Positions 3,694-30,124 of a stretch of 47,147 bases of DNA are shown piece after piece. Within the stretch, counting starts at the first letter, position 1. Every line of letters starts with the position of its first letter. The notes beneath the pieces are model-generated. The model was not told where the DNA came from and did no database searches. It saw only the letters and a program-made list of their open reading frames with translations. The stretch comes from a phage: the sequence record PZ787336.1; one strand, 5' to 3'. The position numbers and the translations under genes were made by a program.

Positions 3694-3707
3694 TTGATTA
3701 TATCATC
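3694..3707 (-). promoter_or_regulatory. extended -10 promoter (TGATATAAT on minus strand) upstream of the chaperone/tape-measure genes
   Basis: plus-strand ttgattatatcatc = minus TGATATAAT, about 20 nt upstream of the ATG at 3676. Confidence 0.45.
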
Positions 3708-5442: not shown

Positions 5443-5457
5443 GTGATTATATCACAG
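5443..5457 (-). promoter_or_regulatory. extended -10 promoter (TGTGATATAAT on minus strand) for the major tail protein gene
   Basis: plus gtgattatatcac; same 13-mer recurs at 23028-23040. Confidence 0.5.
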
Positions 5458-14511: not shown

Positions 14512-14637
14512 TTAACTCTCCACGGTTAGTTTGTGGTCGAATTATAACACAGGGAGATATAGCACCATGAGGCGGTAGCCAGTGCAAACAATGGCGAATT
14601 GGTGAGTGCGTATAGCGTGAGAAAGTAAGTGATAGGG
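14512..14637 (-). CDS. hypothetical small hydrophobic protein (41 aa)
   Basis: AGGAGG RBS 5 nt upstream of the ATG; stop 2 nt before the protease-scaffold ATG. Confidence 0.3.
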
Positions 14638-20654: not shown

Positions 20655-20684
20655 CTACATCAAATGATGAGTGAGGGAGAAATC

Positions 20685-20828
20685 ATGGCAATAGTCAAAT
20701 TCAAAGAAAGCGGTTGTCGCAGAATGTTCAGCCTTGAGCAAATCAAAATCCGTCCGTGCGGCAAGGTGGTTGCGCCATTTAGTCTGGTGCAGATGCGCGA
20801 AGTTGAGATTGTTGAATATATTAAGTGA
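20685..20828 (+). CDS. hypothetical small protein (47 aa)
   Basis: GAGGGAG RBS; below the track length cutoff. Confidence 0.35.
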   Translation: MAIVKFKESGCRRMFSLEQIKIRPCGKVVAPFSLVQMREVEIVEYIK

Positions 20829-20836
20829 GGTTGGTG

Positions 20837-21088
20837 ATGAAAGAATTTAAAGGAATCCCTGGGTCGTGGCATTACGATGATGAACTTGGTGGGGTCTATA
20901 GTAATGGCGACCAATTCGTGTGCGATGTTACCAATAAGGATGATGCCAACGTCATCGCTGCAGCACCTGAGCTTCTGGAGGCTTTGCAGAAAATGCTCAG
21001 TAAAGCGTATAAGCAAAACTGGAATGACGCATACCCAGAAGTGATTAAATCAGCACAGGATGCAATCAACAAAGCGCTAGGAGAATGA
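20837..21088 (+). CDS. hypothetical protein, paralog of 38762..39043
   Basis: shared EFKG..G(A/S)W, IAAAPELL.ALQ and AINKALG motifs with the second copy. Confidence 0.5.
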   Translation: MKEFKGIPGSWHYDDELGGVYSNGDQFVCDVTNKDDANVIAAAPELLEALQKMLSKAYKQNWNDAYPEVIKSAQDAINKALGE

Positions 21089-21089
21089 A

Positions 21090-21740
21090 ATGAAACTTAT
21101 CGAACTGTTAGTTCAAGAATTACCTAAGCGTGGTGGGTGGAACGAAAACTGGGTGGTGGTTACGCAAGATGCCGACGGCTATTTCTGTTGCTGGCGTTAT
21201 GATGACCCAAGATACAATGGATTTGGCTGGAGACACAGAACAGGAAAGGGTTTAGTTGGATACTGGCGAGTTGATAATGATGTTGTTTTATCATGCGACA
21301 GTACGAAGGCAATGGTAACTAGAAGCCAATACGAATCCGCACTCGCAGCATCACAAAAGCCAACATGGAGCGGCGAAGGCCTACCTCCAGTTGGTGCAAA
21401 AGTAGAATTCTTCATCAATCCAAAGTTAGGATACCGCAATGCCTGGATTCCTGATGCCGGCACTGAAATGGAAGTTGTGGCGCACAAGACAACAACGGAC
21501 GGAAACGATGTTGCTGTTTGCTATTGGGATGAAGGTGGTGCTGGTCGGTCATGCTGCTTCGTACCGGAAAGCCTAAAACCACTACGCACAGAAGCAGAAA
21601 GGAAACATGAGGCCGTACTTGAATCTATCTGTGCGGTATTAGAAATGGTGGCGCAAGATTACAAGCGCGAGGATGGGGCCAAGCTAATTTATGAAGCCAT
21701 CGCAGCAGGCAAAATTCCCGGCGTGAAACTTGATGATTAA
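21090..21740 (+). CDS. hypothetical protein (216 aa)
   Basis: ORF followed by a terminator; no recognised domain. Confidence 0.5.
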   Translation: MKLIELLVQELPKRGGWNENWVVVTQDADGYFCCWRYDDPRYNGFGWRHRTGKGLVGYWRVDNDVVLSCDSTKAMVTRSQYESALAASQKPTWSGEGLPPVGAKVEFFINPKLGYRNAWIPDAGTEMEVVAHKTTTDGNDVAVCYWDEGGAGRSCCFVPESLKPLRTEAERKHEAVLESICAVLEMVAQDYKREDGAKLIYEAIAAGKIPGVKLDD

Positions 21741-21814
21741 AACAATATTCAGCGTCGTAGAGATATTGTGCTATGCGATAATAGTATTTGTTCTGTGCAT
21801 GCTGATAAGATAAA

Positions 21815-21845
21815 ACCAAGCCCTCACTTAGAGGGCTTTTTGTTT
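21815..21845. terminator. bidirectional rho-independent terminator
   Basis: AAGCCCTCacttaGAGGGCTT followed by tttttgttt. Confidence 0.65.
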
Positions 21846-21858
21846 ACCGATTGCCATG

Positions 21859-22946
21859 CTAATTATTCATTATTTCATTCATTAATTCCGGTGAATACTT
21901 TAGCCACTCGGTGCATCCATTGAACCCACTAAGTCCAGCGGACTCATATCTATTATGATAATCGCTCTCCATTGATATTGCATCAACGCCTGAAAGTTTT
22001 ACGTACTTAATCACCTCAAACTCAAATGGCGTACTGCTTCTTAGTTGCATAATGCGTTGCTTTATTTTATTGGTTATCCCCACCTTTATTCCTTTCTCGC
22101 TCATTAGGAAGTAAACATACGATTTCTTATTCTTATCAAATCCTGTTACAGCGCATGATGGACATCCAGAACCTTGTATATGATGTGATGCTCGCTGTAC
22201 GAATACTCCATGGATGGGGCATGTTATTGACACGTTGGAGAGGGAGTTCTTGTAGCCGCACTTATCATAAATGTATTTATCTCCATGGACCGCCATTGAT
22301 TTTCTAGCAAAATCAGCTTCACTATCAGTTTGTGATTTTACTTGCTTGCTCTTACCGCAGGACGGACATCCACATCCAATCAGATGCACTGATGGTTTTT
22401 GCAATAAAACCCCATGAATTTCGCAAAGTATCATTACTTCTTTATTGTTTGCCTCATACTTAACGAGTGAGTAATCATATCTGTCACCATGAATGCCCTT
22501 TGATTTCTCAATAAACAGATCATTGCCAAGAGAATAAGACTTTGCTCTCTTTATGAGTCCGCAGCTAGGGCATCCCTGGCCATGTAAGTGATCTGATGGT
22601 CTTTGTTCAAATTCACCATGTCTTCGACAAACTATTACAACTTTTGATTCGCAATCTTTGTATTTAACTTTCGAGTATTCGTATGTATTAGAATGGATTT
22701 TTTTGCTTTTAATATAAACGATTCTGCATCGCTTCTTTTTGCGTTGCCTCTTCTGATGCACGCACACGCCGGACATCCATTACCAGCTAAATGATTTGAT
22801 GGTGATTGCATAAAATCACCATGCTCGCGACAGGTAATGATGACTTTAGTTTTTGAATTTTTGTAATTAGTCTTTGAATAATCATAACGATCGCCATATC
22901 GACAGATTACTTCAGAGATAAAGCGTGATGTCTTTTCTTTTGACAT
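21859..22946 (-). CDS. homing-endonuclease-like protein with tandem CPxCG zinc-ribbon repeats and C-terminal T5orf172 (GIY-YIG-like) domain, apparent frameshift
   Basis: first repeat unit in ORF 22635..22946, further units and the YVYFLMSEKGIKVGIT...TEW domain in ORF 21859..22776; frames meet at an A7 run (plus T7 at 22698-22704). Confidence 0.6.
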
Positions 22947-23027
22947 GATAACCTCGTGTAGGTTCGTGATGAAGATTGCAGCAGGGCGTCACGTTCACCT
23001 TTTCGACTGGCCGGTCTAGCTGCACTT

Positions 23028-23042
23028 GTGATTATATCACTT
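23028..23042 (-). promoter_or_regulatory. extended -10 promoter (GTGATATAAT on minus strand)
   Basis: identical 13-mer gtgattatatcac to the one at 5443-5455; upstream of the endonuclease-like gene. Confidence 0.45.
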
Positions 23043-23990
23043 CTCGTGCTGTGATTCCCATTTTTCTCTTGCCATCACCATCTTATTAAGAGATGACTCA
23101 AGCATGATTACATTGCCATTTTCATCTAACATGCATGGTGTTTGCGCACAGTGGCAGCGATAGCGATTTCCGTCCTTTGAGTAAAATTCCTCTACATCCT
23201 CCGGGCTAAAAGCGCGTGCGTGTCTGGCTGAGTGCGTGGCGCGGGTGGTTTTTAATAATGCCGACACCCAAAAAAGCGCGCTATTTAGCCCCAAAATAAT
23301 CTTTGATTCCTGAACTTCGTCAGACTGCGACTTACGTAAAATGCCTGTAAGCTCGGTTTGGGCAATATTTTTTGCTCGTGATTCACTTACACCGACGCGC
23401 TTAATGATGTCTGATTCAATATCTCTCGGATTAGAACCAACGGCGATAGCATTCATGATCACTTGAGATAAATCATTTCTCGCCGCGTCACCAATGCCAA
23501 CCCAATCACTGTAAGTGGTGGCATTGGCAATAGATAGACGCTGCAAATATGGCTCCGAGTAAATAATGTCTGCAATTGAACGGCGCTCAGCATAGAGTGG
23601 AGACATAGCTGCCAGTTGTTGTTGCGCCTCGACCGTTCCAGCCGAATAGGCGTCAGCGACATAAATTGACATCCAGAACTGACCTGCATTCATTGGCTGT
23701 GTGTCGTCAAGCAGGATTTCATCAATTAGCTGTTGCAACGCCTCATTGAATTGAGCCGCCCGAGCAGCTGAAAAATCATACCTGTAACCATAGGCATCAA
23801 TGGAGTTAATTGCGGCAACTGGGATTGACCTGAATAAGTCTATGACTGAAGATTTAAGGCGCTTGTATCGCGCCTCAATCTGTTTATTTGCCTTGCTTAG
23901 TCTCCTGTTGGCTCCAACAGGGTCTGTTTTGCTGGTTGGTATTTTCGGACCAACCAGTCTGGCACTAACCTTAAAGATTTTGATTTTCAT
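23037..23990 (-). CDS. head morphogenesis protein (minor head protein, SPP1 gp7 / Mu F-like position)
   Basis: about 318 aa immediately downstream of the portal gene; the track ORF extends to 24065. Confidence 0.6.
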
Positions 23991-25374
23991 CGTCAGGATT
24001 ACCCTCAGTGACGACCTGGATTTCTTCAATCGGCTCCATACCAACCATACCGCGAGCCTCATCAACGGTCAGCAGCGCAGATTGACCAGCATCAAAGAAC
24101 GACTTATTAGCAGTGGCGAGCTTGGACAGCAATTCCGCTTTATCCAGCTCTGAAGGTGCAAGCAGGTCATCCCACTTAACCTTGTAGCCATTTGTCGGTG
24201 CTTTATCGACAATGCCAAACTGAATCATGCGCTCAACGAACATTGAGATAACATAGTCAACCCACGTTTCGCGTCGCTGCTTGGCGGTCATCGCCTCCTG
24301 CATCTTGTCTTCATCGCTCGCAAGGCGTCCGGTTTGCTGACCAAAAATGACGGTGAACGGAAGCGCCATTGATGCAGCGAACTGGTTGGCAGCCACTTCC
24401 CACGTAGGTTTTGGGTCGGCGGGCGTCACAGCGAGCACCTTTGCATCCGCGCCCATTGTGAACATGGCTGCGTCAATCCCGGAGTTCAGCGCCTCAATAT
24501 TCTCATTCATGATATCGGTGAGTTCTTCAATATCGACACCCATAGACTGCGCAAGGCTTGCTGGCGTTACGTTGTCCTTCGTGTAGTTAACAGCCAGTTG
24601 ACGGCTGGCATTCTTCAGGAATCCTTCCGCAGAGCTGCCGGAAACTTTAGCCATGTCGATAAGGCTATTGTAACCAGCACGCAGCATCGGGATGCCGCTG
24701 AACATGCTGCCATCAAAACTACCCTCAGCAAGAATAATGATGCGGTCAGGATGAATCTGCACGGAACGCTCAGGTTTGCCGTCGCTGTCGAAATCTTCCA
24801 CGGCGCTTTCCTGATACTCGTACATCTCAGGCATTCCGTAGTCTTCGCTGGTTTCGTCGTTATTCCATGCGCTAACGCGTAGCTGCTCTTCCCATACCGG
24901 AATAAAGCGAACGATGGATTTATCTTTAATGCGGCGGGTTTTGGTGATGTCTACCGGCTCACTCCATTGCTTGCCATCACGGATTTGCAGGATAACGGCG
25001 GAATAGCGGTTGATGGCATTGCGCTTGTCGGCCTCCTTGATGAATGGATAAGCACGCTTCATCATTTCGTTGATGGACAGCTCCCACGTCGTGGAGTTCT
25101 TGTCATCCTCGCCATCTTCTACCACTTCAGGGTATTTCTGCCAGCATTTATTAATAATGCGGTTAATACCAGCGGCGGCTGCTGGATGTCGCTCGTAGGC
25201 ATAGCGGAACATCTCAGCAGTGATTTCTTGCGGGTATCCCAGCTCCTTCCACATGAACTCACGTTTCTGGTCTAGATTCTTCCCGCCAGCACAAAGCCGC
25301 TGCTGCTGAATAGCCCGGTTATTGTTCGCTACGCGGTCGCGAATATAGGCGTTTAGTGCATCAATTTTGGACAT
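23971..25374 (-). CDS. portal protein
   Basis: 467 aa acidic protein between terminase region and head morphogenesis gene; size and position typical. Confidence 0.7.
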
Positions 25375-25420
25375 ATGTCACCAATAAAAAATCCCTCACG
25401 ATGGAGGGATTATAGCATGG

Positions 25421-29543: not shown

Positions 29544-30011
29544 TTATTTTTTTTCGTTCTCTTCCTGGTATTTCTCAAACCAGAAAACAACTGGTCTCTC
29601 CACCACGGCGATAAGACCGAAACGCTCTGCAGTGCGGAAATTCATGCTGCTTTTGCGCCCACGAGCAACCTGAAGAGATACCTGCTTCCTGAACATTTCC
29701 AGGGAATAGGAAGTTTTCATCAGATTGCAGGGGGCGCACGCAGGGTAAAGGTTTTCCAGTCGCTCGGCTTCTGGTCGATATAGCTCACCGGTTGCCTTCA
29801 GCTTGAAAATCCCTTTCGCCGCTGCCTTCATGCACTGCTCAGATTTACGTAGCACTGGTTCAACATGGTCTGCATGCCAACCTTTCTCGGGTAGCTCACA
29901 CCCACAATAAGCACAGCGACCACCGAACTTCATGCGTAGCTCTTCGCGTTGTTTTTTTGTTAGCTTCATTTCATCTACCATTTGTATGATTTTTTGTGTA
30001 GCACCATGCAT
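29544..30011 (-). CDS. HNH endonuclease (terminase-associated)
   Basis: CAYCGCEL...WHADHVEPV...CAPCN HNH motif; located directly upstream of the terminase small subunit; the track ORF extends to 30068. Confidence 0.75.
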   Translation of the reverse strand: MHGATQKIIQMVDEMKLTKKQREELRMKFGGRCAYCGCELPEKGWHADHVEPVLRKSEQCMKAAAKGIFKLKATGELYRPEAERLENLYPACAPCNLMKTSYSLEMFRKQVSLQVARGRKSSMNFRTAERFGLIAVVERPVVFWFEKYQEENEKK

Positions 30012-30124
30012 TTTCATTTCGCGTCTGCACATGAACGACTTCAAGCGCGTCAGGGAATGTCTTTGCAACCTTCTCGATGAAATCGTCTAATTCGTGCTGC
30101 TTTGCGAGTTGCCAGACTTTCTGT

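What the first reader, a model, noticed from the sequence alone, without database searches (positions are those of the whole stretch)
21859..22946. Repeat-rich zinc-ribbon protein with C-terminal T5orf172 (GIY-YIG-like) domain, split at an A7 run
Four tandem units of about 45 aa with the pattern G-D-R-Y-D-Y-S ... H-G-x-F ... G-x-G-C-P-x-C are followed by a C-terminal YVYFLMSEKGIKVGIT ... TEW domain resembling T5orf172. Unit 1 is in ORF 22635..22946 and the rest in ORF 21859..22776. Adding one A to the A7 run at 22698-22704 gives FILKAKKIHSNTYEYS, which matches the linker pattern of the other units (FIEKSKGIHGDRYDYS). The gene is driven by its own extended -10 promoter and followed by a terminator, like a self-contained mobile cassette.
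Basis: partly seen in the sequence, partly recalled or inferred. Interest (0 to 1): 0.5.

Follow-up and report, generated by a model that had tools for sequence, protein, structure and literature searches.

The report
Frameshifted phage homing endonuclease gene
This is an ordinary selfish "homing endonuclease" gene of a known phage family (zinc-finger repeats plus a T5orf172/GIY-YIG nuclease), broken in this genome by a one-base loss; related phages carry it intact.

Summary
On the minus strand, ORFs 22946..22635 (103 aa) and 22776..21859 (305 aa) are two pieces of one gene. Restoring one base at the A7 run (22698-22704) gives a 362-aa protein with four tandem zinc-finger units of exactly 68 aa (C-x2-H ... 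C-x2-C; Pfam DUF723/DUF4379) and a C-terminal T5orf172/MUG113 domain. That domain models with a GIY-YIG nuclease fold and keeps the conserved Arg and Glu. This architecture is the T5orf172 homing-endonuclease family already described in phages (Barth et al. 2023).

Five deposited phage genomes (six database records) and one metagenome contig carry an intact 1089-nt orthologue (95-97% nt identity). They read AAAAACAA, AAAAGAAA or CAAAACAA where the window reads AAAAAAA. The split is therefore a lineage-specific one-base loss, either a recent mutation or an assembly error, and not a conserved recoding site.

The gene lies between the Mu-F-like head-morphogenesis gene and a bidirectional terminator. 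That site is empty in most relatives and holds different endonuclease genes in others. The TGATATAAT promoter-like motif and leader travel with the insert. The terminator belongs to the backbone.

Verdict: a new, probably decayed, member of a known kind. Low interest.

The parts
21859..22946 (-). Whole frameshifted T5orf172 homing-endonuclease gene (1088 nt; intact orthologues are 1089 nt)
   Evidence: PHROG 681 'endonuclease' E 3.6e-81
22635..22946 (-). ORF1, 103 aa: zinc-finger unit 1 plus the start of unit 2, then 21 out-of-frame residues. It has a GAGG ribosome-binding site 5 nt upstream of the ATG.
21859..22776 (-). ORF2, 305 aa: the rest of unit 2, units 3-4 and the T5orf172 domain. No Shine-Dalgarno-like sequence precedes any candidate start.
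22698..22704 (-). A7 run at the frameshift point (codon 83). Zero-frame reading is GCA AAA AAA TCC, which is the A_AAA_AAA register. Orthologues have 8 nt here, interrupted by C or G.
22731..22934 (-). Zinc-finger unit 1 (aa 5-72; C39-x2-H42 ... C58-x2-C61)
22528..22730 (-). Zinc-finger unit 2 (aa 73-140 of the repaired protein); contains the frameshift
22324..22527 (-). Zinc-finger unit 3 (aa 141-208); carries the window-specific F181L change in the conserved H-G-x-F motif
22120..22323 (-). Zinc-finger unit 4 (aa 209-276)
21862..22119 (-). T5orf172/MUG113 (GIY-YIG fold) nuclease domain, aa 277-362. Y279, K288, G290, R298, E327, G344 and E347 are invariant in the alignment.
23031..23039 (-). 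TGATATAAT, an extended -10-like motif overlapping the head-morphogenesis stop codon (TGA, 23037-23039)
   Evidence: function not tested
22947..23030 (-). Leader of about 84 nt. It is shared at >92% identity by three different endonuclease genes at this site and is absent from empty sites. It is not unusually structured.
21824..21856 (-). Leftover 3' end of the ancestral head-morphogenesis gene (W-Q-S-V-N-K-K-P-S-K-stop), now stranded downstream of the endonuclease stop codon
21818..21838 (.). Bidirectional intrinsic-terminator-like hairpin. It belongs to the backbone, not the insert.
23037..23990 (-). Mu-F-like head-morphogenesis gene (context). Its last ~60 nt differ from the allele of the gene-less phage Lewi.

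Best explanation
The region is a free-standing homing-endonuclease gene of the T5orf172 branch of the GIY-YIG superfamily.

Inferred mechanism for the intact protein: the four tandem 68-aa zinc-finger modules bind a long DNA site, and the C-terminal GIY-YIG-fold domain cuts nearby. The target is most likely the endonuclease-free allele at the 3' end of the head-morphogenesis gene. Recombinational repair from an endonuclease-carrying co-infecting genome then copies the gene and its flanks into the cut genome.

Shown here: the gene sits in a known insertion hot spot, between the head-morphogenesis gene and a backbone terminator, and exactly at a mosaic junction of the genome. In this genome one base has been lost in codon 83. 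Translation from the only good ribosome-binding site therefore ends after 103 aa, giving one zinc finger and no nuclease.

My reading is that the copy is a recently inactivated allele (about 0.6) or an uncorrected assembly error (about 0.3). It is not a conserved programmed frameshift. The confidence given (0.85) is for the identity of the gene as a disrupted-as-written T5orf172 homing-endonuclease gene, not for the choice between mutation and error.
For: - Family: Pfam DUF723/DUF4379 plus T5orf172/MUG113, all above the curated cut-offs; PHROG 681 'endonuclease' at 3.6e-81.
- Conserved residues: Y279, K288-x-G290, R298 and E347 are invariant.
- Architecture: four exact 68-aa repeats, as described for T5orf172 homing endonucleases in PMC10448857. 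Nuclease activity of a T5orf172 domain, dependent on the equivalent Glu, was shown for ICP1 Odn in PMC8263062.
- Intact relatives: 1089-nt orthologues in five phages and one ENA contig. A 112-member protein cluster is mostly 362 aa.
- Insertion site: empty in HC6, Lewi and most relatives, and occupied by an HNH-type and a second T5orf172-type gene in others.
- Mosaic junction: the 98% HC6-like block ends exactly at the endonuclease stop codon.
- Frameshift: the window has 12 nt where orthologues have 13. ORF2 has no ribosome-binding site.
- Other decayed or rearranged alleles exist in the same cluster.
Against: - No cleavage, binding or homing was tested here. Barth et al. themselves state that homing by T5orf172 genes has not been verified experimentally.
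- The target site is inferred only from position and from the diverged 3' end of the head-morphogenesis gene.
- Reads are not available, so a real mutation cannot be told from an assembly error.
- The window copy shows little further decay (16 synonymous against 6 non-synonymous unique codons). That fits either a very recent loss or an error.
Confidence: 0.85

Rival explanations
1. Assembly or sequencing error. The phage really carries an intact 1089-nt gene, and one base was dropped in a low-complexity A-rich stretch.
For: All five sequenced phage orthologues and the ENA contig are intact. The window copy has no other lesion, its unique changes are mostly synonymous (16 against 6), and all catalytic and zinc-ligand residues are kept. 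The exact 103-aa and 305-aa products are found in no other assembly.
Against: Known alleles have an interrupted run (AAAAACAA and similar), so a simple homopolymer-length miscount works only if an unobserved A8 (Lys83) allele exists. The window differs from the closest intact allele by four further amino-acid changes, all downstream of the frameshift. One of them, F181L, is in the conserved H-G-x-F motif. Another frameshifted allele (78 aa) is seen on four contigs in the same cluster, so real decay does occur.
Confidence: 0.3
2. Functional recoding. A -1 ribosomal slip on A_AAA_AAA, or polymerase stuttering on A7, makes some full-length nuclease, while the main product is a short one-finger DNA-binding protein.
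For: The run is in the exact X_XXY_YYZ register (GCA AAA AAA TCC), and a -1 shift restores the frame and the 68-aa repeat spacing. From general knowledge, Lys-codon heptamers of this kind are slippery in enterobacteria (dnaX and IS elements use A_AAA_AAG).
Against: The site is not conserved: none of five phage orthologues, the ENA contig or 14 cluster members has the run. There is no downstream structure (z +0.36) and no upstream Shine-Dalgarno-like stimulator. Any read-through would be incidental and low.
Confidence: 0.06
3. Two genuine separate genes: a small zinc-finger protein and a three-finger nuclease.
For: Both are open reading frames with ATG starts.
Against: ORF2's start lies 142 nt inside ORF1 and has no ribosome-binding site. 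The first 25 or so residues of ORF2 and the last 21 of ORF1 are out-of-frame readings of unit 1 and unit 2. Orthologues are single ORFs.
Confidence: 0.03
4. The intact family member is not a homing element. It would instead be a domesticated nuclease or regulator, for example anti-satellite like ICP1 Odn or a repressor like PLE CapR.
For: T5orf172 and zinc-finger modules have been co-opted in that way in ICP1/PLE.
Against: The gene shows patchy presence and absence at one site beside an essential gene, different endonuclease types swap at that site, it sits at a mosaic junction, and decayed alleles exist. These are the signatures of a selfish element, not of a retained function.
Confidence: 0.08

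Closest known systems
T5orf172 homing-endonuclease genes with repeated CapR/DUF723/DUF4379 zinc-finger DNA-binding domains (Barth, Dunham & Seed 2023, PMC10448857)
   Same: The domain order is the same: an N-terminal array of zinc-finger repeats followed by a C-terminal T5orf172 domain. The gene sits beside an essential morphogenesis gene and at the boundary of an exchanged genome block. Intragenic repeat recombination occurs (P0131 lacks exactly one 68-aa unit), and frameshifted copies exist.
   Different: The host phage group is Jersey/Skate-like siphophages of Salmonella and E. coli rather than ICP1. The fingers are the C-x2-H ... C-x2-C (DUF723/DUF4379) type rather than CapR's CxxC...CxC. 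This copy is broken.
Orthologous 'endonuclease' / 'GIY-YIG nuclease family protein' of Salmonella phages 64795_sal3 (YP_009322202.1), ZBSTP8, PSH-1, gmqsjt-1 and 'Acinetobacter' phage AB4P2
   Same: 95-97% nucleotide identity, the same insertion site, and the same promoter-like motif and leader.
   Different: They are intact 362-aa ORFs with an interrupted A-run. The window lacks one base and has F181L, R218M and a few other unique changes.
ICP1 Odn (Gp88), a T5orf172 nuclease shown to cut DNA, inactivated by E180A (PMC8263062)
   Same: T5orf172 domain with the conserved Arg and Glu; Glu347 in 'TEW' is the corresponding invariant residue here.
   Different: Odn uses a RepA_N DNA-binding domain and targets a satellite origin. 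It has no zinc-finger array.
T4 I-TevI and the Seg proteins (classical GIY-YIG homing endonucleases)
   Different: The domain order is reversed (nuclease N-terminal in I-TevI). Its DNA-binding modules are a helix-turn-helix and a minor-groove helix, not tandem zinc fingers. Sequence similarity is undetectable by phmmer against PDB.

Membership tests
T5orf172 / MUG113 (Pfam PF10544 / PF13455, GIY-YIG clan) | Profile match above the curated gathering score | tested here: met
   MUG113 38.8 bits (cut-off 22.3) and T5orf172 29.3 bits (cut-off 20) at aa 277-361. The same match is seen with the unrepaired ORF2.
GIY-YIG nuclease superfamily | GIY-YIG alpha/beta fold | tested here: met
GIY-YIG nuclease superfamily | Conserved catalytic Arg and Glu and the two Tyr/Gly motifs | tested here: met
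   Y279 (YVY), K288-V-G290, R298 and E347 (TEW) are invariant across 10 homologues. Their equivalence to I-TevI R27/E75 and Odn E180 is inferred from motif order, not from a structural superposition of residues.
GIY-YIG nuclease superfamily | Metal-dependent DNA cleavage | not testable with these tools
   Needs purified protein.
T5orf172 homing-endonuclease genes (sensu Barth et al. 2023) | DNA-binding region made of one or more CapR/DUF723/DUF4379 zinc-finger domains | tested here: met
   DUF723 29.7 bits and DUF4379 25.1 bits, both above cut-off. Four 68-aa units each carry C-x2-H ... C-x2-C.
T5orf172 homing-endonuclease genes (sensu Barth et al. 2023) | Sporadic presence at a fixed site next to an essential gene in otherwise related genomes | tested here: met
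   Of 88 phage records matching the region, 6 have this gene and 3 have other endonuclease genes. The two other loci inspected (HC6, Lewi) are empty, and the rest match only the flanks. The neighbour is the Mu-F head-morphogenesis gene.
T5orf172 homing-endonuclease genes (sensu Barth et al. 2023) | Biased transmission (homing) into the empty allele | not testable with these tools
   Not shown for any member, according to PMC10448857.
Functional (intact) gene | Uninterrupted reading frame | tested here: not met
   1088 nt against 1089 nt; the frame breaks at codon 83.
Programmed -1 frameshift / slippage site | Slippery heptamer in the X_XXY_YYZ register | tested here: met
   GCA AAA AAA TCC.
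Programmed -1 frameshift / slippage site | Conservation of the site and of the two-frame arrangement in orthologues | tested here: not met
   All orthologues are in one frame with AAAAACAA / AAAAGAAA / CAAAACAA. Cluster members have T/A/S/E/V at this codon.
Programmed -1 frameshift / slippage site | Downstream stimulatory structure or upstream Shine-Dalgarno-like element | tested here: not met
   The 70 nt downstream fold at -6.0 kcal/mol, z +0.36 against shuffles. There is no SD-like sequence in the 25 nt upstream.

The most novel reading that the evidence does not exclude
The one-base-short allele might be a newly arisen attenuation switch rather than a dead gene. Most ribosomes would make a 103-aa one-finger DNA-binding fragment, which could act as a CapR-like repressor or as a protector of the target site. 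Occasional -1 slippage on A_AAA_AAA, or polymerase stuttering, would yield trace full-length nuclease. A related point: the frameshift lies in codon 83, which occupies the one repeat position that varies in all four zinc-finger units among near-identical alleles (residues 15/83/151/219). That position could be a specificity-determining residue of a modular DNA-recognition code.
Probability: 0.05. Interest if true: 0.5.

Novelty: new member of a known kind. Interest (0 to 1): 0.2.

Why it matters
The main value is for annotation. The two ORFs should be annotated as one disrupted T5orf172 homing-endonuclease gene, not as two hypothetical proteins, and the A7 run should be checked in the reads.

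The locus is also a tidy natural example of the life cycle of a selfish nuclease gene in Jersey/Skate-like phages:
- one hot spot behind the head-morphogenesis gene is empty in most genomes;
- it is filled by at least three different endonuclease genes that share a promoter-like motif and leader;
- the gene sits exactly at a recombination junction;
- allelic variants include a frameshift, a second frameshift and a clean one-repeat deletion.

The repeat position that varies in all four zinc-finger units is a cheap lead for anyone studying how these arrays read DNA.

Tried and rejected
- Exact look-ups of the 103-aa and 305-aa products in public assemblies found nothing.
- Pattern scans across the frameshift site found nothing in IMG/VR or in JGI metagenomes. 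Megablast against complete E. coli genomes found nothing.
- A sequence search of the PDB gave no hit.
- Foldseek with the full-length beads-on-a-string model (pTM 0.31) was uninformative, apart from a weak hit to the UPF0213 protein BH0048 (1zg2). A domain-only model was needed.
- A second homologue search with the nuclease domain alone returned only three proteins.
- Rfam found nothing in the window and ARAGORN found no tRNA genes.
- The shared leader is not more stable than shuffled sequence (z -0.12). I therefore dropped the idea of a conserved regulatory RNA, although a 5-bp hairpin can cover the GAGG.
- The sigma-70 scan did not call the promoter because there is no good -35 element.
- I considered and rejected a conserved programmed frameshift, two independent genes, and a terminator carried by the cassette.

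Full report
**What is in the sequence**

On the minus strand, ORF 22946..22635 (103 aa) overlaps ORF 22776..21859 (305 aa) in another frame. The only run of seven A in the gene is at 22698-22704, in the context GCAAAAAAATCC. Inserting one base there joins the two ORFs into a 362-aa protein reading ...ESFILKAKKIHSNTYEYS....

After this repair the C-x2-H motifs lie at residues 39, 107, 175 and 243, and the C-x2-C motifs at 58, 126, 194 and 262. That makes four tandem units with a period of exactly 68 aa. The units are 42-54% identical pairwise, with BLASTP E values of 1e-17 to 6e-21. The exact restoration of the 68-aa spacing is itself strong evidence that a single base is missing.

**What the protein is**

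- Pfam places DUF723 and DUF4379 ('probable treble-clef zinc finger') on the repeats. It places MUG113 (38.8 bits, cut-off 22.3) and T5orf172 (29.3 bits, cut-off 20) on residues 277-361.
- PHROGs gives family 681, 'endonuclease', at E 3.6e-81.
- In an alignment with nine homologues, Y279, K288, G290, R298, E327, G344 and E347 are invariant. These form the Y-x-Y ... K-x-G ... R ... T-E-W pattern of T5orf172 domains.
- The full-length model has well-predicted beads but no fixed arrangement (pTM 0.31), and it was not useful for Foldseek.

**What is known about this kind of protein**

Barth, Dunham and Seed (PMC10448857) describe exactly this architecture. In their set, T5orf172 genes are putative homing endonucleases, and 87% carry one or more CapR/DUF723/DUF4379-type zinc-finger DNA-binding domains, often repeated. 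These genes cluster beside essential genes, mark boundaries of genetic exchange, undergo recombination between their internal repeats, and are sometimes found frameshifted.

A T5orf172 domain has been shown to cut DNA in ICP1 Odn, and an E180A change at the conserved Glu abolishes cutting (PMC8263062). Barth et al. state that homing itself has not been demonstrated for the family.

A tblastn search with the repaired protein finds homologues in 738 phage records at 1816 places, often several per genome. The kind is therefore known and common.

**The frameshift**

Five deposited phage genomes carry an intact 1089-nt orthologue at 95-97% nucleotide identity: ZBSTP8, PSH-1, AB4P2, 64795_sal3 (two database records) and gmqsjt-1. 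So does one ENA metagenome contig. The orthologues are annotated 'endonuclease' or 'hypothetical protein'. The protein cluster has 112 members, and those listed are mostly 362 aa.

At the critical spot they read GCAAAAACAATCC, GCAAAAGAAATCC or GCCAAAACAATCC (13 nt). The window reads GCAAAAAAATCC (12 nt). The A7 run is therefore not ancestral. It was produced by loss of the interrupting base, or by a change to A followed by loss of one A.

Because the zero frame reads GCA AAA AAA TCC, the run happens to be in the classical A_AAA_AAA register, and a -1 slip would restore the frame. Three things argue against a programmed event:
- the 70 nt downstream are no more structured than shuffled sequence (z +0.36);
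- there is no upstream Shine-Dalgarno-like element;
- no orthologue has the site.

ORF2 has no Shine-Dalgarno-like sequence before any candidate start codon, whereas ORF1 has GAGG at the proper distance. As written, the locus should therefore yield mainly a 103-aa fragment with one zinc finger.

**Real mutation or error?**

This cannot be settled without reads.

For an error:
- there is no other lesion;
- all zinc ligands and catalytic residues are kept;
- window-specific codon changes are mostly synonymous (16 against 6).

For a real, recent loss:
- the known alleles are not homopolymers at this spot;
- compared with the closest intact allele (P0125, 357/362 identical), the window has four further amino-acid changes, all downstream of the break, including F181L in the otherwise invariant H-G-x-F motif;
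- the same cluster contains another frameshifted allele (P0128, 78 aa, one A lost from an A5 run about 30 nt upstream, seen on four contigs) and an allele lacking exactly one 68-aa repeat (P0131).

I put the odds at roughly 0.6 real, 0.3 error and below 0.1 functional slippage.

**Genomic setting**

The window is a Jersey/Skate-like siphophage genome of Salmonella/E. coli phages. The gene lies directly downstream of the Mu-F-like head-morphogenesis gene (23037-23990) and the portal gene.

*Site occupancy.*
- The two other loci inspected, HC6 and Lewi, are empty at this site, and most relatives match only the flanks. In the empty loci the head-morphogenesis stop codon sits inside the terminator hairpin.
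- In PJN025 and SEzh_1 the site holds a gene with one related zinc finger and, by motif, an HNH-type C-terminus (H-I-D-H...; Pfam finds no domain in the PJN025 protein).
- In ZK22 it holds a three-finger T5orf172 gene only 37% identical to this one.

*What travels with the insert.* All occupied sites share the same diverged last ~60 nt of the head-morphogenesis gene. They also share the TGATATAAT motif overlapping its stop codon and an ~84-nt leader, at more than 92% identity up to about the start codon. The empty site aligned (Lewi) has none of this.

*What belongs to the backbone.* Downstream of the endonuclease stop codon lies a stranded copy of the ancestral head-morphogenesis 3' end (TGGCAATCGGTAAACAAAAAGCCCTCTAAGTGA, coding W-Q-S-V-N-K-K-P-S-K-stop), fused to the terminator. 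The HNH-type insert keeps a shorter remnant, so the inserts have different 3' junctions. The terminator is therefore backbone, and the promoter-like motif and leader go with the insert.

*Promoter-like motifs.* TGNTATAAT occurs five times in the window, all on the minus strand, against about two expected on both strands together.

*Mosaic junction.* A block 98% identical to the gene-less E. coli phage HC6 runs from 20676 to 21859 and stops exactly at the endonuclease stop codon. From 21687 to 24798 the window follows ZBSTP8-type Salmonella phages instead, and the HC6 head-morphogenesis gene is barely alignable. The endonuclease gene thus sits on a mosaic junction, as Barth et al. describe.

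**Mechanism**

*Shown:*
- domain content, fold and conserved residues;
- the repeat structure;
- presence/absence and replacement polymorphism at one site;
- the one-base deficit.

*Inferred from the family and from GIY-YIG homing endonucleases in general:*
- the zinc-finger array binds a long asymmetric site and the tethered nuclease cuts nearby;
- the natural target is the empty allele around the 3' end of the head-morphogenesis gene;
- the diverged 3' end in carriers gives self-immunity;
- repair from a carrier genome copies the gene together with its flanks.

In this genome the drive is probably switched off.

**A side observation**

Among 17 distinct alleles that are at least 94% identical, 28 positions in the zinc-finger region vary. 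One repeat position, the residue two before the His of I-H-G-D, varies in all four units: residues 15, 83, 151 and 219. Residue 83 takes T, A, S, E or V, plus the K implied by the window's repaired reading. By permutation, the chance that any register varies in all four units is about 0.005. The frameshift lies in this same codon 83. This may mark a specificity-determining position, or simply an unconstrained one.

**Verdict**

The thing itself is a broken copy of a known, already annotated family of phage homing-endonuclease genes. It is a new member of a known kind and of low interest, beyond correcting the annotation and serving as a clean illustration of turnover at an endonuclease hot spot.

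Noticed in passing
window 21859/21860 (junction); blocks 20676-21859 and 21687-24798: A block 98% identical to E. coli phage HC6 ends exactly at the endonuclease stop codon. Beyond it the window follows ZBSTP8-type Salmonella phages, and HC6's head-morphogenesis gene is barely alignable. The endonuclease gene therefore marks a recombination junction.
   Followed up: partly
repaired protein residues 15, 83, 151, 219 (window codons 22902-22904, the 2-nt remnant at ~22699-22700 within the A7 run, 22495-22497, 22291-22293): The same repeat position varies in all four zinc-finger units among alleles at least 94% identical. Residue 83 takes five residues, or six with the window's implied Lys. Permutation P is about 0.005. 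The frameshift is in this codon. It may be a specificity-determining residue.
   Followed up: partly
protein cluster of P0001 (P0131, P0128): P0131 (294 aa) lacks exactly one 68-aa repeat; the junction lies in C-R-E/H-G between units 1 and 2. P0128 (78 aa) is another frameshifted allele, with one A lost from an A5 run about 30 nt upstream of the window's site. Their DNA could not be fetched.
   Followed up: partly
L007 1248-2312, L009 1165-2268, L008 1158-2063 (same site in phages PJN025, SEzh_1, ZK22): Different endonuclease genes occupy the same site: one zinc finger plus an HNH-type C-terminus (by motif), and a three-finger T5orf172 gene 37% identical. They share the TGATATAAT motif and the ~84-nt leader with the window but have different 3' junctions.
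   Followed up: partly
window 3697-3705, 5446-5454, 14541-14549, 23031-23039, 25409-25417: All five exact TGNTATAAT motifs are on the minus strand, against about two expected on both strands together. The one at 25409-25417 lies just upstream of the portal gene start.
   Followed up: no
window 29544-30068 (-): A 174-aa ORF with an HNH endonuclease motif (PF01844, 25.4 bits against a cut-off of 21.4). It is a second nuclease-type gene in the window.
   Followed up: partly
L002 (OR544125.1): A record deposited as 'Acinetobacter phage vB_AbaM_AB4P2' is about 96% identical to these Salmonella/E. coli siphophages across the region and carries the intact orthologue. The host or morphotype label looks doubtful.
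   Followed up: no
window 22935-22965 (-): A 5-bp hairpin (AACCU/AGGUU) can sequester the GAGG ribosome-binding site of the endonuclease gene. The leader as a whole is not more stable than shuffled sequence.
   Followed up: partly
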